Shown here piece after piece: positions 768 through 5,602 of a stretch of DNA of 6,102 nt (position 1 is its first letter; each line of letters starts with the position of its first letter). The stretch spans positions 1 through 6,102 of IMG/VR virus record IMGVR_UViG_3300020030_000010; one strand, given 5' to 3'. The notes under the pieces are model-generated. The model did not search any database and had not been told where the DNA came from. It saw nothing but the letters and a program-made list of their open reading frames with translations. Made by a program: the position numbers and the translations under genes. The DNA comes from a virus.

Positions 768-2015
768 TCACCTTACATAACGACGGCTGGCCCTCGTAGT
801 TCCAGAGTATCTGCCATCTTTACCGTAAATTTCTCTAGTTTCATCGTAATCGACAGGGGCAGGACGCTTTGTAACAGCCGTGCCAGCGATAGCCATGGCG
901 CCAACCAAGGCAGTTCTCGCCAAACCATAGCCAAAGGCATTCTTACTGGACCGATTCTGAAACCAGCGGCCCGAGAGGCCTTGTTCGCCTTCCGAGGCAG
1001 CAAGACCCATAAGCTTCTGGTGAATCTGACGACCTGTCATCTTTGTTGTCTTGCCGGTAGGCTTGCCTTTTCCATCAACCTCGGGGACGTCAACTTCCGT
1101 GTCCCAATTGAGGTTAAACCACTCACGAAGATCGGCCAGACTAACCTTACGTATCTCGGATTCAACATTTAAGACATCACCGGAGGCAGCAGATTCATAA
1201 GCAGCGGCGAAATCTCGGGCGATTTGGGCAGCATAAACAGAATCAAAATACTTGTCATTGTATTTCCTAATCTGATTCGCCTCCTCAACGTGTTTTGAAT
1301 ACATGGCGACAAAGTCTTGAAACTTATACGTAGACATAAGATCAGCGTACTCGGCGTCAGCAGCATGAATGTCCGCCAAAGCGCGATTAAGGCGAATTAA
1401 TTCAGAAACATTGTTGATCTGATGCTCCAAAGATTTCTTCTCCAAATTATCCATCTCCTTCCGCCAGTCTGCGCTATGAGTGTTGCCTCTCATAAGATCA
1501 GCTTCAGCGTCATCCCGGTTAGCAGCAGCAGTATTCCGGTCAACCGTAGACCGCGCAACCATATTCTGTGCGATAGCAGCGGGATCGGCAGAGGCGAAGA
1601 CGCCAGAGCCGACGGGAGCACCACCGGAAGGGCCGGAGGCGGAGGGCATAGAAGCAGAACCGCCGGACATTGTAGCGTTGACGCCGACGCCCGAAGAACC
1701 CAAAACGGCAGCAGGTGTAACGCCAGCTTTGAGATAGCGATCGAAGATTTTCGAAGGGTCGTTGTAAGCGTTTTCGTAATCAAACTGTTTTTGCCAGTTA
1801 GCATAGGAAAGTTCAGACTGTTTCTGCATCTGTTCGAGAGCATACTTCTGCTGAAGCTTCATCTGCTTTTGCTGAAATTTCCACTGGCGGCGAGCATTCA
1901 TGCCGCCAAAAAGCTGGCCTAAAGCACCAGAGATCAGACCGGTAGTGCCTGTAGAGGCAGCAGACTGACCGAGGGCTTGACCAAAAGATGCGGCGGCAGC
2001 AACAGGAATAGCCAT
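768..2015 (-). CDS. VP2: Microviridae minor capsid / DNA pilot protein (VP2; functional analogue of phiX174 H), 415 aa
   Basis: The architecture is typical of microvirus pilot proteins. It has a Gly/Ala-rich hydrophobic N-terminus (MAIPVAAAASFGQALG...GLISGALGQLFGG) and a Q/K-rich coiled-coil-like stretch. It carries the conserved-looking YNDPSKIFDRYLKAGVTPAAV block (compare the Y-N-S-P...AG-(L/V)-N/T-P motif of gokushovirus VP2). There is also a G/S/A/P low-complexity linker and a C-terminal hydrophobic segment (LARTALVGAMAIAGTAV). It lies downstream of the capsid gene. Confidence 0.8.
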   Translation of the reverse strand: MAIPVAAAASFGQALGQSAASTGTTGLISGALGQLFGGMNARRQWKFQQKQMKLQQKYALEQMQKQSELSYANWQKQFDYENAYNDPSKIFDRYLKAGVTPAAVLGSSGVGVNATMSGGSASMPSASGPSGGAPVGSGVFASADPAAIAQNMVARSTVDRNTAAANRDDAEADLMRGNTHSADWRKEMDNLEKKSLEHQINNVSELIRLNRALADIHAADAEYADLMSTYKFQDFVAMYSKHVEEANQIRKYNDKYFDSVYAAQIARDFAAAYESAASGDVLNVESEIRKVSLADLREWFNLNWDTEVDVPEVDGKGKPTGKTTKMTGRQIHQKLMGLAASEGEQGLSGRWFQNRSSKNAFGYGLARTALVGAMAIAGTAVTKRPAPVDYDETREIYGKDGRYSGTTRASRRYVR

Positions 2016-2016
2016 A

Positions 2017-2202
2017 CTACATTTGAGTTAAATTTCTAGAACGAATAATATAATCAACACGTACTGTGTCAATATGAACGCCACTACGCTGCATCCTGGC
2101 TTGAGCAGAACACGATGACAGGAAGAAGGCAGCAAGAGCAGATACAACTGCTGCAATCAATGTCCAAAACTTCTTGGATTTTAATAAAGCTTTGATATTC
2201 AT
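2017..2202 (-). CDS. Small predicted lipoprotein, 61 aa: signal peptide plus lipobox L-S-S-C (Cys31), mature peptide about 31 aa; candidate lysis or superinfection-exclusion factor
   Basis: The sequence MNIKALLKSKKF (basic n-region), WTLIAAVVSALAAFF (h-region) and LSSC matches [LVI][ASTVI][GAS]C. On the - strand, ctg tca tcg tgt is + strand 2110..2121. ATG start at 2200..2202. The TAG stop at 2017..2019 is 1 nt from the VP2 ATG, which implies co-translation with VP2. Confidence 0.6.
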   Translation of the reverse strand: MNIKALLKSKKFWTLIAAVVSALAAFFLSSCSAQARMQRSGVHIDTVRVDYIIRSRNLTQM

Positions 2203-2286
2203 AGAATTAAGTTTTTTGCGACCTCCATGAAAATCAATAAAAACCTAAAATTTTACAACTTTCTATAGAGGTCAAGAAAGAACGAT

Positions 2287-2366
2287 AGAAAAATGCGCGA
2301 CCTCTCCTGCAGTCGTTACCAATAACCTCCAGCGATTCACGAACTCTCGCAGAAGGGGTTCGCGCA
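2287..2366 (-). promoter_or_regulatory. Long-range inverted repeat TGCGCGA (2360..2366) / TCGCGCA (2294..2300) on the - strand, with an extendable imperfect stem, followed by T5 on the coding strand; possible attenuator/terminator or ssDNA structural element
   Basis: The - strand reads tgcgcgaacccc...(59 nt)...gaggtcgcgcaTTTTTct. There is a 7-bp perfect GC-rich stem plus cc/gg and ctgc/gcag inner pairings. It lies in the 194-nt gap between the acidic ORF and the lipoprotein ORF. The large interior means it is not a canonical terminator. Confidence 0.3.
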
Positions 2367-2396
2367 CGTAGCATATATCGTCAAGTAAAGGATGTA

Positions 2397-2704: not shown

Positions 2705-4528
2705 TTAACGGTTAGACAAACGGGTTGCAAAACTTTTATTAATCAGGTTCTTCTTCTGAACAGCGTAAGACATATTCACAAAGAAATTATCTTCCACGTC
2801 AGAAGCGAAAGGAGAATTAACCTGCGACAAATCGACAAAAAGAGCAGGCGCGTAATCGGCCTTCGAAGGCCAATAGGAACTCCAATTCACTTGACGCTGC
2901 TGCACCCAATAAGCATAAAGTTTCCGACCACTAACGCTTCCAGCGGTACTAGAAATTTGACCTAAGACTTCATCATAAGAAGACCGAAACTCATTAAAGC
3001 AGGGCTCTTGCGAAAAAGTCGTCTCGACGACGCCGCCAACAAGATTACCAAAACGCCAATTAGGCACACTCTGATATCCTATATCATTGTAGATCGGATT
3101 GAAATAATCAGAGCCTCGATAATTCAAGTAGTCAGGCTTGATCTGCGACCAGTAATAAACAGGACGAATACTTAGCATATCAATCAAATAACCAGGCTCA
3201 CGGAAGTAGTAAGACTGTCGGCGGCCAAGACGATCGTTAAAGGCGATAGCGCCACCCTGCTGACCGAGAGGGCCGGCTGCACCCGCGTGGCCGAAATTAT
3301 TCGGTCCGGCCTGATTCATAACAATCTGAACATTAACAGTCTGCGAAGCACTGAAAAGGAGTTTTGGACGATCAACATGCTCAATCTTAGAAGCGAAAAA
3401 TGTTTCCAGCCAATCACTATAGCGGCTTCCTCCTGCGCCGAGCAAATCTTTGTATTCCTGAAGACGAGAGGCAATAGCCAACTGCGGGATAGTTTGGACA
3501 CCAGTCATCGAAACGGCAGAACTACTACCAATAGGAAGGAGCCGACTAAATCGATCAGGGTTAGACGGAATGACGGCCATAGGATGGGCGAGATTAAAAA
3601 TAATAGGCTCAGCGAGACCCTTTGTATCGTCAATCGAACTATATTGATCGAGAGGAGCCGATGTTCCCCAGACTTGAAGCGCGGTCGGTTGAGACGCAAC
3701 CGGATAGCCGTCACCGGAAGCACCAGCAGCCGCACCAGAGGAGGCAATATCGGAGGCGATGATCTGCCGAAGCAAAGCAGAACGACAGTAAGTATTATTA
3801 GAAGACGCTACAGCCGCGGGGTAAAACTGACTCTCAAAATAAGCATCAAGGAATTCGAGATTACCATAACGTTGAGTAAAATACGAATCCGAACCAGGCG
3901 CATTAAAAGAGTAGGTACCATTAGAAGCGGTAGAATGACCTGTTACGGTGTAATACCAGGAGGCAGGCCAAGCAAAGGAATAGAGTCCCCACTGCGAATA
4001 GCCGTAATAATTTCGGACGATATCCCAGTAAGCAAGATATGTATCAGCGTTAGCCCAAATACCTCCAACAATATTCGAGGGGAGGACAACGCCGCTAGTT
4101 GAAGCAGGCGTAGTATAATCAACAGCGCGGTTAGACACGCGCAGCCAATACATAAGCGAATTAGAAAAAGTCGCAGTAACGGCAGGAGTCGCGCCAGTCG
4201 AAGGAATTCCCGGAACTGAGTTGATCCAATTAAGACTCAGACTATTCATATCGAACTTACTGCTATTCGTTCTGAGCTCAGGGTGATACAACTGAAGCGG
4301 CACCCAAAAACGATGCAAACGAATAGTGTAGGGATTGAACGTTGGGACAGCAAGCGGGTTGCTACGAACATCGATACCCTGCTCGATAGAAACGCGGTCC
4401 CTAGCGTTAATAAAATCGATCCGCACTGGATATAGAATACCAGGCGTACACGTAAAAGCCTTACTCTCAGGAACATCATAGCGAGAGTAGCCATTTACAG
4501 CATGTGAGATAAAGGGTTGTTTTCCCAT
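2705..4528 (-). CDS. VP1: Microviridae major capsid protein (VP1 / F-like), 607 aa
   Basis: It is the longest ORF. The N-terminal block YDVPESKAFTCTPGILYPV...RFWVPLQLY resembles the F/VP1 N-terminus. The block ASRLQEYKDLLGAGGSRYSDWLETFF...VDRPKLL matches the hallmark LQ..E..ARGG(S/T)RY.E....FGV...D.R..RPE.L region of microvirus capsid proteins. The start lies 3 nt after the VP4 stop. Confidence 0.93.
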   Translation of the reverse strand: MGKQPFISHAVNGYSRYDVPESKAFTCTPGILYPVRIDFINARDRVSIEQGIDVRSNPLAVPTFNPYTIRLHRFWVPLQLYHPELRTNSSKFDMNSLSLNWINSVPGIPSTGATPAVTATFSNSLMYWLRVSNRAVDYTTPASTSGVVLPSNIVGGIWANADTYLAYWDIVRNYYGYSQWGLYSFAWPASWYYTVTGHSTASNGTYSFNAPGSDSYFTQRYGNLEFLDAYFESQFYPAAVASSNNTYCRSALLRQIIASDIASSGAAAGASGDGYPVASQPTALQVWGTSAPLDQYSSIDDTKGLAEPIIFNLAHPMAVIPSNPDRFSRLLPIGSSSAVSMTGVQTIPQLAIASRLQEYKDLLGAGGSRYSDWLETFFASKIEHVDRPKLLFSASQTVNVQIVMNQAGPNNFGHAGAAGPLGQQGGAIAFNDRLGRRQSYYFREPGYLIDMLSIRPVYYWSQIKPDYLNYRGSDYFNPIYNDIGYQSVPNWRFGNLVGGVVETTFSQEPCFNEFRSSYDEVLGQISSTAGSVSGRKLYAYWVQQRQVNWSSYWPSKADYAPALFVDLSQVNSPFASDVEDNFFVNMSYAVQKKNLINKSFATRLSNR

Positions 4529-4531
4529 AAA

Positions 4532-5602
4532 TTAAATGATTAGTTGAAGTTTATAATGATCCTGCCAAAATCGAACAACATCCTGATCGAGCCAAGCAGG
4601 AGGGTCAAAATCCGGCATCTTGCGAGAGGAGGCGGAAAAACGCATTATCTGCTTTTGCTCCCATGCATACGACGCTCTACGGGATACGGCGGAATTGAGA
4701 GAGAACCGCTCAATACACAGAGACACAATACGCTTAACCAAAGGAGACTTGCTAAAACGTGCATAAGCGTCAGCAGCAGCAACCGAGCGGGTAACCTCGT
4801 CTTCAGGTTTAAGATATTTAAGATAGTATCGAGGGATCGAGTAATTATAATTGATACGCTTCTCAAAATCAAAATAAGACCACGTCGAAGTACGAGCAGT
4901 AGGGCGAGGCATATAACCGAGAAAATCACCAACGCCAGCAGATATGAATTTTCGCGTATAACGGCGATGTTGGAGGAGGTAAGATAAAGGTGTAGACTTT
5001 CCATCTAAAATAACATTTTGATTAGATATTTCTGTAGGATCGAAATAAATCTGCTTAGTAACGTATTTAACAACGTATCGCGCCCGCTTGTGTGTACCTT
5101 TGGCGAGCCAGACGAAACCTAAATCACGGACAGCAGATCTGATTTCATTGTAAAGGCAGTTAGTTCCGAACAAAAAACCATGGAAATGAAGACGCGGGGC
5201 CGATCCTGTTTCCGGGTGAGTGCCAAACTCCTGAAAAAAAGCATGTTTGAAGGAGTGACCGAGTTTATGCCGCACACGCTCATTCCATCGCCGAATAAAC
5301 CTAGAAGGATCCTTCAGCGCTTCATCGTAATACCTGGGGGCTATAGTTATCGTAATAAAAATAGCCTGTTGAGATTCAGCCTTGCAGCGGGCAAGCTCAC
5401 GCTCGAGCCGCACAAACCAGTTATTGCGCTGACGCCGCAAGCAATCCTCGCACTTACCACACGGGACCATAAGCCATTGACGCGCGATGTCCCAAGGGCG
5501 AAGAGCAAGTGCAGACTTAGCAATATCAGAACCGTCTCGACAAGGATTCTTCTTATCGAAATAACGACGATTGCGTATCCATATGGGAGAGGAACAGGGC
5601 AT
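4532..5602 (-). CDS. VP4: Microviridae replication initiation protein (VP4 / phiX174 A-like HUH rolling-circle endonuclease), 356 aa
   Basis: RCR motif 1 is FITITI (aa 82-87). The HUH motif LHFHGF has H-F-H at + strand 5180..5188, read as cat ttc cat on the - strand. The two-tyrosine catalytic motif YVVKYVTK is at 5063..5077 (tac gtt gtt aaa tac); compare phiX174 A, YVAKYVNK. The N-terminal CGKCEDC cysteine cluster (5441..5461) is typical of VP4 proteins. Confidence 0.93.
   Translation of the reverse strand: MPCSSPIWIRNRRYFDKKNPCRDGSDIAKSALALRPWDIARQWLMVPCGKCEDCLRRQRNNWFVRLERELARCKAESQQAIFITITIAPRYYDEALKDPSRFIRRWNERVRHKLGHSFKHAFFQEFGTHPETGSAPRLHFHGFLFGTNCLYNEIRSAVRDLGFVWLAKGTHKRARYVVKYVTKQIYFDPTEISNQNVILDGKSTPLSYLLQHRRYTRKFISAGVGDFLGYMPRPTARTSTWSYFDFEKRINYNYSIPRYYLKYLKPEDEVTRSVAAADAYARFSKSPLVKRIVSLCIERFSLNSAVSRRASYAWEQKQIMRFSASSRKMPDFDPPAWLDQDVVRFWQDHYKLQLII

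What the first reader, a model, noticed from the sequence alone, without database searches (positions are those of the whole stretch)
2017..2202. 61-aa phage lipoprotein coupled to the pilot gene: candidate single-gene lysis or exclusion factor
The ORF has a textbook lipoprotein signal: a basic n-region, a 15-16-residue hydrophobic core and the lipobox LSSC with Cys31. This leaves a mature lipopeptide of only about 31 aa (CSAQARMQRSGVHIDTVRVDYIIRSRNLTQM). No acidic residues follow the Cys, so it lacks a Bacteroidota-style surface-export signal. Its stop is 1 nt from the VP2 start. The genome has no recognisable endolysin or peptidase, so lysis must come from a small protein. phiX174 uses the membrane protein E for this. 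Alternatively, small phage lipoproteins such as T5 Llp or Cor block the receptor to prevent superinfection. Either role would be unusual and poorly documented for Microviridae.
Basis: partly seen in the sequence, partly recalled or inferred. Interest (0 to 1): 0.7.

Follow-up and report, generated by a model that had tools for sequence, protein, structure and literature searches.

The report
Conserved small lipoprotein of gut microviruses
The 61-codon gene just upstream of this gut microvirus's pilot-protein gene encodes a real, strongly conserved small lipoprotein shared by several lineages of Alistipes-associated microviruses; it most likely helps breach the host envelope at release, but that role is untested and a second, hidden membrane-protein gene competes for it.

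Summary
Window 2017-2202 (minus strand) is a 61-aa ORF with a basic n-region, a 17-residue hydrophobic core, the lipobox LSSC (Cys31) and a 31-aa cationic mature peptide. Its stop lies 1 nt before the VP2 ATG. The gene is real: dN/dS is about 0.08 while synonymous sites are saturated. It is present in all 147 adequately complete relatives. The [GAS]-Cys is kept in essentially every intact family member, even where the signal peptide or the mature peptide has been swapped.

The family occurs in four microvirus genome layouts, including prophages in Alistipes, and is far better conserved than the capsid or Rep proteins. No layout has a recognisable cell-wall hydrolase. Eight Bacteroidota-type microviruses that carry an M15 peptidase lack the lipoprotein. 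Sister lineages have 180-220-aa long forms with a C-terminal membrane anchor, the topology of a unimolecular spanin.

I favour a role in envelope disruption and release (about 0.4). Superinfection exclusion remains open (about 0.2).

No described family matches, and I found no literature on this gene. One GenBank homologue is auto-named "lipoprotein".

The parts
2017..2202 (-). ORF61, a 61-aa prolipoprotein (stop codon at 2017-2019)
   Evidence: sequence; homologues with E down to 1e-28; dN/dS 0.08; present in 147/150 loci
2113..2202 (-). Signal peptide, aa 1-30: basic n-region plus hydrophobic core F12-L28. Unusually conserved (F12, W13, L15, A22, A25, F26 and F27 are invariant).
   Evidence: alignment; dN/dS 0.077 for this part; the same signal peptide is found on unrelated mature peptides
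2110..2121 (-). Lipobox L28-S29-S30-C31; predicted SPase II cleavage between S30 and C31
   Evidence: position -1 is S157/G14/A5 and the Cys is invariant in 176/176 FW-type members
2020..2112 (-). Mature 31-aa lipopeptide CSAQARMQRSGVHIDTVRVDYIIRSRNLTQM (net charge +3)
   Evidence: kept with a different signal peptide in L002, P0149, P0164 and P0165
2038..2082 (-). Near-invariant beta-prone core G41-VHIDTVRVDYIIRS-55, the presumed effector or binding element
   Evidence: invariant columns; dN/dS 0.04; Chou-Fasman beta 1.19 versus alpha 0.95
2016..2016 (-). Single spacer base between the ORF61 stop and the VP2 ATG (translational coupling)
   Evidence: 1-nt spacing in 106/147 loci
768..2015 (-). 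VP2 DNA pilot protein, the downstream coupled gene
   Evidence: PHROG 8689/8693 'pilot protein'
2281..2382 (-). Conserved structured intergenic element upstream of ORF61. GC-rich hairpin (inner stem 2293-2367) followed by a U-run (2288-2294), terminator-like. Gene callers mis-read it as an N-terminal 'MLRARTP...' extension.
   Evidence: fold z = -3.4; terminator-like hit; compensatory pairs in 71 relatives; read in different frames in different relatives
2219..2274 (-). Second hairpin immediately 5' of the ORF61 start
4645..5004 (-). ORF119, an overprinted +1-frame gene inside Rep. It is a 119-aa protein with 2-3 TM segments and a basic C-terminal tail, and is a possible partner or rival lysis factor.

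Best explanation
ORF61 is a genuine Sec/SPase II-type prolipoprotein and a core gene of Alistipes-associated (Bacteroidota) gut microviruses.

Inferred pathway: the precursor is exported, lipid-modified on Cys31 and cleaved after Ser30. [quoted passage not shown] Its near-invariant beta-prone core (GVHIDTVRVDYIIRS) binds a conserved host envelope component. The peptide accumulates in step with VP2 through termination-reinitiation coupling. It thereby contributes to envelope failure and virion release. It would stand in for the missing cell-wall hydrolase, acting either alone or together with the Rep-embedded membrane protein ORF119.

Shown: the gene is real, it is a lipobox protein, it is a core gene, it is modular, and its genomic contexts are as described. 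Inferred: processing, localisation, the target and the lysis role.
For: (1) It is a real gene under strong purifying selection. dN/dS is 0.08 with saturated dS, and 0.04 in the core.

(2) The lipobox is conserved where its neighbours vary. It is kept when the signal peptide is replaced (L002, P0149, P0164, P0165) and when the mature peptide is replaced (type B, P0166-P0182).

(3) It behaves as a core gene, not a patchy accessory gene. It is present in every sufficiently complete relative (147/150; the 3 exceptions are truncated contigs). It occurs in four different genome layouts.

(4) It is 54-80% identical between phages whose VP1 and Rep are only 24-29% identical. This points to a conserved host target rather than a phage-specific partner. 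Two hits in bacterial genomes are both microvirus prophages in Alistipes.

(5) Apart from ORF119, it is the only predicted exported or membrane protein in the genome.

(6) No muralytic domain is found in any of the four layouts. M15 peptidase is absent from all ~150 lipoprotein-bearing loci and from the window. Conversely, 8 M15-bearing microviruses, including the cultured B. fragilis phage phiHBP1, have no family member and no credible lipobox ORF.

(7) Sister lineages carry 180-220-aa long forms. These have the same lipobox N-terminus plus a C-terminal hydrophobic segment and a basic tail. That is the topology that defines unimolecular spanins (PMC6139136).

(8) There is precedent that a lipopeptide of this size can lyse cells. 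Colicin lysis proteins are 47-aa precursors with 28-aa mature lipopeptides, are lethal when over-expressed, and are likewise preceded by a terminator hairpin (PMC2896534).
Against: There is no experimental evidence of any kind.

ORF119, overprinted in Rep, is an equally good or better lysis candidate by analogy with phiX174 E and the ssRNA-phage lysis genes.

The complementary distribution with M15 peptidase is confounded by phylogeny and host, and the M15 side rests on only 8 genomes.

In temperate relatives the gene is the first gene at the prophage edge, a position typical of lysogenic-conversion or exclusion genes.

Several unrelated mature peptides share one signal peptide, a pattern that could also reflect an arms race.

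Spanins normally need an endolysin and holin, and no i-spanin partner is evident. The short form lacks the C-terminal anchor.

AF2 gave only a low-confidence helix for the mature part (pLDDT 57-62), so the beta-strand binding idea rests on propensity alone.

Some members have atypical lipobox residues: T or N at -3, E at -2.
Confidence: 0.4

Rival explanations
1. Superinfection exclusion or progeny protection. The periplasm-facing lipopeptide would inactivate a host receptor or entry factor, as T5 Llp and phi80/N15 Cor do with FhuA. Alternatively it would block insertion of the pilot-protein conduit of an incoming microvirus. Either way, infected or lysogenic cells and their debris would stop taking up related phages.
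For: It is a small periplasmic lipoprotein, the same class as Llp and Cor. In the window-type genomes it lies next to the pilot gene. In the Alistipes prophages it is the first gene at the prophage edge. One signal peptide is combined with several unrelated mature peptides. The same mature peptide is shared by very different microviruses of one host genus, which fits a shared host entry factor.
Against: Exclusion genes are usually dispensable and patchy. This gene is present in every complete relative and is under very strong purifying selection. No orphan or domesticated copies turned up in 185,579 species genomes; the only two hits are intact prophages. From my own knowledge of phiX174, and as suggested for phiHBP1 (PMC13064476), microvirus receptors are surface polysaccharides, which a periplasmic peptide cannot mask. 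There is no similarity to Llp, Cor or any PADLOC, Pfam or PHROG family. Adjacency to VP2 is not conserved across layouts.
Confidence: 0.2
2. A non-lysis, non-exclusion periplasmic role. Examples are a lysogenic-conversion or host-modulating lipopeptide that alters envelope physiology in carrier or lysogenic cells, or an accessory factor that only tunes burst size, as phiX174 K does. In this reading ORF119 or an unrecognised enzyme does the actual lysis.
For: ORF119 is a bona fide overprinted membrane protein. The lipoprotein gene sits at the prophage edge. No structural or family clue ties ORF61 to a lytic mechanism.
Against: A core gene kept in four genome layouts of roughly 6-kb genomes suggests an essential step. 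No muralytic enzyme is seen anywhere. The long forms have spanin-like topology.
Confidence: 0.12
3. It is not processed as a lipoprotein. The conserved hydrophobic helix would be an uncleaved signal-anchor, and the transmembrane segment itself would be the effector: an E-like 'amurin' that inhibits a membrane step of cell-wall synthesis.
For: The hydrophobic segment is conserved far more than ordinary signal peptides (F12, W13, A22, A25, F26, F27 invariant; dN/dS 0.077). It is re-used with different C-terminal peptides. AF2 draws one continuous helix. Atypical -3/-2 residues occur in some members.
Against: [GAS]-Cys is invariant even where both flanks vary. The mature peptide is retained with completely different hydrophobic segments (L002, P0149, P0164, P0165). 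This makes the mature peptide, not the helix, the conserved effector. There is no Pfam hit to the phiX174 E family.
Confidence: 0.08
4. A chance ORF or non-coding spacer between the scaffold-like gene and VP2.
For: It is short (61 codons) and matches no known family.
Against: dN/dS is 0.08 with third positions saturated. There are 450 homologous protein clusters and 67 representatives at 50% identity. The ORF is conserved in 147/150 loci.
Confidence: 0.01

Closest known systems
Colicin lysis proteins / bacteriocin release proteins (BRP, Kil, Cel; Pfam Lysis_col)
   Same: A tiny Sec/SPase II lipoprotein: the BRP precursor is 47 aa and the mature lipopeptide about 28 aa (PMC2896534), against 61 and 31 aa here. 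The lipopeptide alone compromises the envelope and is lethal when over-made. The gene sits just downstream of a terminator-like hairpin. From memory, the BRP signal peptide is itself stable and toxic, which would fit the unusually conserved signal peptide here.
   Different: No sequence similarity (no Pfam hit at E<=0.1). BRPs are plasmid-borne in Enterobacteria and act through the outer-membrane phospholipase A. The host here is Bacteroidota, the target is unknown, and the gene is viral.
Phage spanins: o-spanin (lambda Rz1) and unimolecular spanin (T1 gp11)
   Same: Small phage-encoded outer-membrane lipoproteins that face the periplasm and act in the last step of lysis. The long forms of this family have the defining u-spanin topology: an N-terminal lipobox, a periplasmic linker of about 120 aa and a C-terminal TM segment (PMC6139136).
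   Different: The window's protein is the short form with no C-terminal anchor. No i-spanin gene, holin-endolysin cassette or periplasmic Cys is present. There is no sequence similarity to any spanin family. The long forms contain periplasmic cysteines, unlike the 58 u-spanins surveyed. They also carry a strongly conserved basic cytoplasmic tail that known u-spanins do not have.
T5 Llp and phi80/N15 Cor superinfection-exclusion lipoproteins
   Same: [quoted passage not shown] In the window-type genomes the gene is adjacent to a gene for an entry protein. (My knowledge of Llp and Cor is from memory.)
   Different: The mature peptide is about half the size. There is no sequence similarity. Llp and Cor target a TonB-dependent receptor protein. 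Here the gene is universal within the clade rather than accessory.
phiX174 protein E (single-gene lysis, MraY inhibitor)
   Same: A small membrane-targeted protein of a microvirus that lacks an endolysin.
   Different: E is an uncleaved N-terminal-TMD protein overprinted in gene D. ORF61 is a free-standing gene with a lipobox. The E-like feature of this genome is ORF119 inside Rep, not ORF61.

Membership tests
Bacterial-type lipoprotein precursor (SPase II signal) | Positively charged n-region, hydrophobic core, and lipobox [LVI][ASTVI][GAS]-C with the Cys at about position 15-35 | tested here: met
   K4/K8/K10/K11; core F12-L28; L-S-S-C31. Passes the PS51257-style rule I coded from memory. 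[GAS]-C is present in 176/186 family proteins, and the other intact members also keep S/G-C.
Bacterial-type lipoprotein precursor (SPase II signal) | Lipid modification of the Cys and globomycin-sensitive cleavage | not testable with these tools
   Needs palmitate labelling or mass spectrometry. SignalP and LipoP were not available either.
Bacteroidota surface-exposed lipoprotein | Lipoprotein export signal: acidic residues at +3..+5 (K-(D/E)2; SDDDD in B. fragilis; PMC5080379) | tested here: not met
   The sequence after the Cys is CSAQAR. 0 of 176 family members have D/E at +2..+5.
Colicin lysis protein / BRP (Pfam Lysis_col) | Sequence membership in the family | tested here: not met
   No Pfam-A family at E<=0.1; none in NCBIfam above its cut-off.
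Colicin lysis protein / BRP (Pfam Lysis_col) | Mature lipopeptide of about 28-35 aa that causes quasi-lysis via outer-membrane phospholipase A | not testable with these tools
   The size criterion is met (31 aa). The activity is untested.
o-spanin (Rz1-like) | OM-lipoprotein gene embedded in, overlapping or adjacent to an i-spanin gene (N-terminal TMD plus periplasmic coiled coil) within a holin-endolysin cassette | tested here: not met
   There is no holin-endolysin cassette and no muralytic domain. The neighbours are a structured intergenic element and the pilot gene VP2. In other layouts the neighbours differ.
u-spanin (T1 gp11-like) | [quoted passage not shown] | tested here: not met
   ORF61 ends 31 aa after the Cys and has no second hydrophobic segment. 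The feature is met only by the long-form homologues (L001 6947-7597, L132 2432-3025, P0121-P0162).
u-spanin (T1 gp11-like) | Complements an Rz/Rz1 defect and works downstream of an endolysin | not testable with these tools
   No endolysin is recognisable in any lipoprotein-bearing layout. A complementation assay is needed.
Llp/Cor-type exclusion lipoproteins | Sequence or profile similarity to known exclusion lipoproteins or defence families | tested here: not met
   PHROGs gave 0 families. PADLOC gave only a sub-threshold hit at E=0.004 to the uncharacterised PDC-M02A. Pfam gave 0.
Llp/Cor-type exclusion lipoproteins | Blocks adsorption or DNA entry of the same or related phages | not testable with these tools
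   Needs a cultured phage-host pair.
phiX174 E-type amurin | An uncleaved N-terminal TMD protein overprinted in another gene, with Pfam Microvir_lysis membership | tested here: not met
   ORF61 is a free-standing gene with a cleavable lipobox signal and no Pfam hit.

The most novel reading that the evidence does not exclude
The family is a previously unrecognised lysis system of non-phiX microviruses, built on a lipopeptide. The short forms would be stand-alone 'lipo-amurins' or disruptins that hit a conserved Alistipes envelope protein. The long forms would be unimolecular spanin-like proteins created by extending the same gene through an overprinted region to a C-terminal membrane anchor. 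That would be the first natural short/long homologous pair documenting the o-spanin-to-u-spanin route, which Kongari et al. (PMC6139136) called speculative. It would operate without any endolysin and possibly in concert with the Rep-embedded membrane protein ORF119.
Probability: 0.25. Interest if true: 0.85.

Novelty: new variant of a known kind. Interest (0 to 1): 0.6.

Why it matters
How microviruses other than the phiX174 group get out of their hosts is an open question. Some carry an M15 peptidase; most have nothing recognisable. These phages are among the most abundant in animal guts.

This work defines a concrete pair of testable candidates in one roughly 6-kb genome. One is a universally conserved 31-aa lipopeptide with a near-invariant core. 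The other is an overprinted multi-TM protein in Rep.

If the lipopeptide is lytic, its target would be a conserved and possibly druggable weak point of the Bacteroidota envelope. The approach mirrors how E, LysM and A2 pointed to MraY, MurJ and MurA.

If it is an exclusion factor, it would be the first such mechanism described for microviruses.

Either way the short and long forms give an unusually clean example of modular evolution and overprinting in a tiny genome. The result also corrects a recurrent mis-annotation, the 100-aa 'MLRARTP...' fusions.

Tried and rejected
(1) Structure prediction. AF2 on a 20-sequence alignment gave one long helix (mean pLDDT 70, mature part 57-62). This is uninformative, so I ran no fold search.

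(2) Family searches. Pfam, PHROGs, NCBIfam, PADLOC and PDB sequence or profile searches of ORF61, the long form and ORF119 found nothing above threshold. The weak NCBIfam hits only match the signal/lipobox region of mycoplasma lipoproteins.

(3) A real N-terminal extension ('MLRARTP...GRAFFYRS', 100-aa gene calls). Rejected. A stop separates it from ORF61 in the window. Other relatives read the same DNA in another frame. The DNA folds into a covarying hairpin.

(4) Programmed +1 frameshift fusing the lipoprotein to VP2, suggested by the 1-nt spacing. Rejected as a general mechanism: about 10% of genomes have spacings of 2, 8, 11 or 17 nt, which put VP2 in the other frame. In the other layouts the downstream gene is not VP2.

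(5) Apparent absence of the gene in L016, L033 and L034. These are truncated contigs.

(6) Other alternative-frame hydrophobic ORFs as lysis candidates. None is conserved as an open frame except ORF119.

(7) L139 as a possible prophage of the window type. It is a chimeric assembly of two related genomes.

(8) Exact-sequence look-up of encoding contigs for ORF61. Nothing was on record.

(9) Rfam. The only result is a sub-threshold DUF805b hit at 3880-3917.

(10) Literature. No paper describes a microvirus lipoprotein or its function.

Full report
**Context.** The 6102-nt window is a complete-length microvirus genome with all genes on the minus strand.
- Rep/VP4 is at 4532-5602 (Pfam REP_ORF2-G2P, PHROG 942).
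- Major capsid VP1 is at 2705-4528 (Phage_F, PHROG 514).
- An acidic 98-aa scaffold-like ORF is at 2397-2693.
- ORF61 is at 2017-2202.
- Pilot VP2 is at 768-2015 (PHROG 8689/8693).
- Three unassigned ORFs of 105, 107 and 125 aa complete the set.

The nearest GenBank records are uncultured Microviridae from pig, musk-deer, civet, rodent, lemur and tortoise faeces at about 70-76% nucleotide identity.

**Observation.**
- The start is ATG at 2202.
- The n-region is MNIKALLKSKK and the hydrophobic core is F12-L28.
- The lipobox is LSSC with Cys31.
- The mature peptide is 31 aa with net charge +3.
- No acidic residue occurs near the Cys.
- The stop is TAG at 2019-2017, followed by one base and then the VP2 ATG.

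The ORF passes a PROSITE-style lipoprotein rule that I coded from memory. SignalP and LipoP were not available, so I relied on comparative evidence instead.

**Is it a real gene?** Yes.
- A search of 5.8 billion proteins returned 450 homologous clusters, with E-values down to 1e-28. One NCBI record (DAU60727.1) is auto-named "lipoprotein".
- A profile search of 1.84 billion 50%-identity representatives found 67 representatives.
- From IMG/VR I collected 150 related loci. 147 of them contain the ORF. The three exceptions (L016, L033, L034) are contigs whose ends fall exactly on this region.
- Over 131 distinct coding sequences, third codon positions are saturated (pS 0.62) while pN is 0.10. This gives dN/dS of 0.08 overall, 0.077 for the signal peptide and 0.04 for the core GVHIDTVRVDYIIRS.
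- In 106 of 147 loci the stop codon is exactly 1 nt from the ATG of the VP2 ORF of at least 250 aa.

**Is it a lipoprotein?** The best in-silico argument is modularity.
- Most members share the signal peptide K-S-K-K-F-W-T-L-(V/I)-A-A-I-V-A-A-L-A-A-F-F-x-x-S-C.
- L002, P0149, P0164 and P0165 carry a quite different signal peptide. They keep the same [S]-Cys and the same mature peptide.
- Conversely, type B (7 loci at the same genomic position: CTARHYVVQSASSIKSGDTTRTTITYEQIGNFKRP) and P0166-P0182 keep the signal peptide and the Cys but have unrelated mature peptides of about 30 aa.
- Across 186 family proteins, [GAS]-Cys follows the hydrophobic core in 176. The others are alternative-signal members that also keep it, or frameshifted fragments.
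- No member has D/E at +2..+5. The Bacteroidota surface-export signal, K-(D/E)2 or SDDDD (PMC5080379), is therefore absent, and a periplasm-facing location is inferred.
- Caveats: some members have T or N at -3 or E at -2. The signal peptide is more conserved than a disposable leader usually is.

**Host and distribution.** A scan of one genome per 185,579 bacterial species found the family twice, both times in Alistipes (A. montrealensis and an Alistipes MAG) and both inside microvirus prophages. In those prophages the gene order is lipoprotein, then Rep, VP1, a small ORF and VP2. Their Rep and VP1 are only 24-29% identical to the window's, whereas the lipoprotein is 80% and 54% identical.

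Altogether four layouts carry the gene:
- (i) The window type: VP1, scaffold-like ORF, hairpin, lipoprotein, VP2.
- (ii) Lipoprotein (62 aa), small ORFs, Rep, VP1, VP2. Examples are L148, L150 and L152, the last two with Alistipes-like host flanks.
- (iii) The same order as (ii), but with a 195-216-aa long form (L001, L132-L137).
- (iv) Lipoprotein, then VP1 (L147).

Within the window-type clade the genomes are mosaics. L070 has an identical lipoprotein but only 67% VP1 identity, while L004 has 94% VP1 identity but only 74% lipoprotein identity. The gene therefore behaves as a host-linked module that is kept by every lineage.

**Long forms.** About 30 representatives (and L001, L132-L137) extend the same N-terminus through roughly 100 poorly conserved S/T/P-rich residues. 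That region is overprinted on a 118-135-aa ORF in another frame. The extension then reaches a conserved hydrophobic segment of about 15 residues and an almost invariant basic tail, RRGGRRGRPRPKxKTIPLGGSHL. Codon-level variation in the tail, including AGT/TCT serine switches, shows that this frame is translated.

An N-terminal lipobox combined with a C-terminal TM segment is the defining topology of unimolecular spanins such as T1 gp11 (PMC6139136). That review noted that an origin of u-spanins from o-spanins by stop-codon loss was only speculation, because no homologous pair was known. Here there is such a homologous short/long pair, although whether either form is a spanin is untested.

**Lysis candidates in the genome.**
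- No muralytic domain was detected in the window or in any of the other three layouts.
- An M15 peptidase query found 331 phage records, including roughly 130 microviruses. It found none of my ~150 lipoprotein-bearing loci and nothing in the window.
- Eight M15-bearing microviruses have no family member (profile E>=0.22) and no credible lipobox ORF. They include the only cultured Bacteroidota microvirus, phiHBP1 of B. fragilis (PMC13064476).
- This complementary pattern fits a lysis-related role but is confounded by phylogeny.

A screen of all gene-strand ORFs with TM-like segments found one other conserved frame, at 4645-5004: 119 aa in the +1 frame of Rep codons 200-320.
- In 94 distinct Rep variants its ATG and stop are conserved 94/94, and 93/94 have no internal stop.
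- Normalised synonymous-site diversity in Rep drops from 0.68 outside the overlap to 0.29 inside. None of 20,000 random codon subsets was as low.
- Rep amino-acid diversity is higher inside the overlap (0.49 versus 0.33).

This is the classic signature of an overprinted gene. Its product has 2-3 TM segments and a basic C-terminal tail. It therefore resembles a holin, E or K, and it is the natural analogue of the overprinted lysis genes of phiX174 and the ssRNA phages.

**Upstream element.** The 'MLRARTP...GRAFFYRS' peptide that many gene calls fuse to the lipoprotein (the 100-aa versions) is not a protein.
- In the window a stop separates it from ORF61.
- In other relatives a different frame of the same DNA is in phase with the lipoprotein.
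- The DNA folds into a GC-rich hairpin followed by a U-run (z = -3.4; terminator-like hit), with compensatory pair changes across 71 relatives.

ORF61 therefore heads a translationally coupled block just after a structured, terminator-like element. Colicin lysis genes sit behind the T1 terminator in the same way (PMC2896534).

**Interpretation.** The following points are firm:
- ORF61 is a genuine gene and a lipobox protein.
- It is a core gene of a host-linked group of microviruses.
- Its mature core is under extreme constraint across phages that otherwise differ greatly.

That last point argues for a sequence-specific interaction with a conserved host component, not generic membrane perturbation or a phage-specific partner.

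Function is inferred. I rank a role in envelope disruption and release first, at about 0.4. The reasons are:
- its core-gene status in a roughly 6-kb genome;
- the absence of any hydrolase;
- the complementarity with M15 peptidase;
- the spanin-like long forms;
- the precedent of 28-aa colicin lysis lipopeptides.

It may act with ORF119 rather than alone.

Superinfection exclusion (about 0.2) is kept alive by the protein class, the prophage-edge position and the swapping of mature peptides. Universality, strong purifying selection, the lack of orphan copies and the likely polysaccharide nature of microvirus receptors count against it.

An uncleaved E-like anchor (about 0.08) is disfavoured, because the mature peptide survives replacement of the signal peptide. 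A chance ORF is excluded.

**Novelty and score.** No curated family (Pfam, PHROGs, NCBIfam, PADLOC, PDB) includes it, and no paper in the searchable library describes it. Small phage lipoproteins are a known kind (spanins, Llp/Cor), as are lytic lipopeptides (BRPs). A universally conserved one in Microviridae, with homologous short and anchor-bearing long forms and no endolysin, is a new variant of that kind. Interest is 0.6. It makes the long-standing question of how non-phiX microviruses lyse directly testable with two defined candidates, but the functional claim is still inference.

Noticed in passing
window 4645-5004 (-): An overprinted 119-aa ORF in the +1 frame of Rep (codons 200-320). 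It is very hydrophobic, with 2-3 TM segments, and ends in a basic tail (..PPYPVERRMHGSKSR). Its ATG and stop are conserved in 94/94 Rep variants. Rep synonymous diversity is 0.29 inside the overlap versus 0.68 outside, while Rep amino-acid diversity is higher inside. It is unannotated and matches no family. It is a holin/E/K-like candidate.
   Followed up: yes
window 2219-2382 (-): A conserved structured intergenic element upstream of ORF61. It comprises a GC-rich hairpin (2293-2367) with a U-run (2288-2294) and a second hairpin (2219-2274). Compensatory base-pair changes are seen across 71 relatives. Gene callers often translate it as an 'MLRARTP...' extension or as a separate 46-aa ORF (2234-2374). 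It could be a terminator or attenuator, or an ssDNA complementary-strand origin.
   Followed up: partly
L001 6947-7597; L132 2432-3025; L136 1440-2027; P0121-P0162: Long forms (180-220 aa) of the lipoprotein. They have the same N-terminus, then a variable S/T/P-rich ~100 aa overprinted on a 118-135-aa ORF in another frame, then a ~15-aa hydrophobic segment and the near-invariant tail RRGGRRGRPRPKxKTIPLGGSHL. The topology is u-spanin-like. From memory, the tail also resembles the C-terminus of the phiX174/G4 DNA-binding protein J (..RLWYVGGSQF).
   Followed up: partly
L070, L004 and the table of L003-L131: Strong mosaicism in the clade. L070 shares a 100% identical lipoprotein, 96% VP2 and 92% Rep with the window, but only 67% VP1. 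L004 has 94% VP1 but a 74% lipoprotein. This implies frequent recombination with breakpoints flanking VP1.
   Followed up: partly
L001 6113-6577; L002 13169-13684; L132 1717-2172; L150 2353-2808; L152 2024-2479: Different microvirus prophages lie next to the 3' end of the same Alistipes helix-turn-helix gene. In L002 the prophage is in the opposite orientation relative to that gene. This suggests a shared, orientation-independent (dif-like?) attachment site.
   Followed up: no
L042, L047, L050, L056, L074, L076, L078 (locus upstream of VP2): A second allele (type B) at the same position. It has the same signal peptide but the lipobox L-E-S-C (Glu at -2, atypical) and an unrelated 35-aa mature peptide, CTARHYVVQSASSIKSGDTTRTTITYEQIGNFKRP. 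These genomes also lack homologues of the window's 105- and 107-aa ORFs.
   Followed up: partly
L132 3434-3649; L001 7901-8224; L148 1905-2081; L152 4324-4554; L153 (phiHBP1) 1766-2035 (-): Hydrophobic alternative-frame ORFs are also embedded in the Rep genes of the other lipoprotein-bearing layouts and of the M15-bearing phage phiHBP1. I did not test whether they are under dual-coding constraint like ORF119.
   Followed up: no
window 2045-2072 (-): A near-consensus sigma-70-type promoter match (TTGACA-16-TATTAT, 11/12) lies inside ORF61, upstream of VP2. The number of such hits in the region is no more than in shuffled controls, and Bacteroidota promoters differ, so it is probably meaningless.
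   Followed up: no
window 3880-3917 (+): A sub-threshold Rfam hit to DUF805b RNA (22 bits against a gathering score of 35.6; E=0.009), on the non-coding strand inside VP1. It is probably chance.
   Followed up: no
L139 (IMGVR_UViG_3300020029_000058, 10519 nt): This contig is a chimeric or concatenated assembly of two related (~89-93% identical) microvirus genomes, not a prophage.
   Followed up: yes
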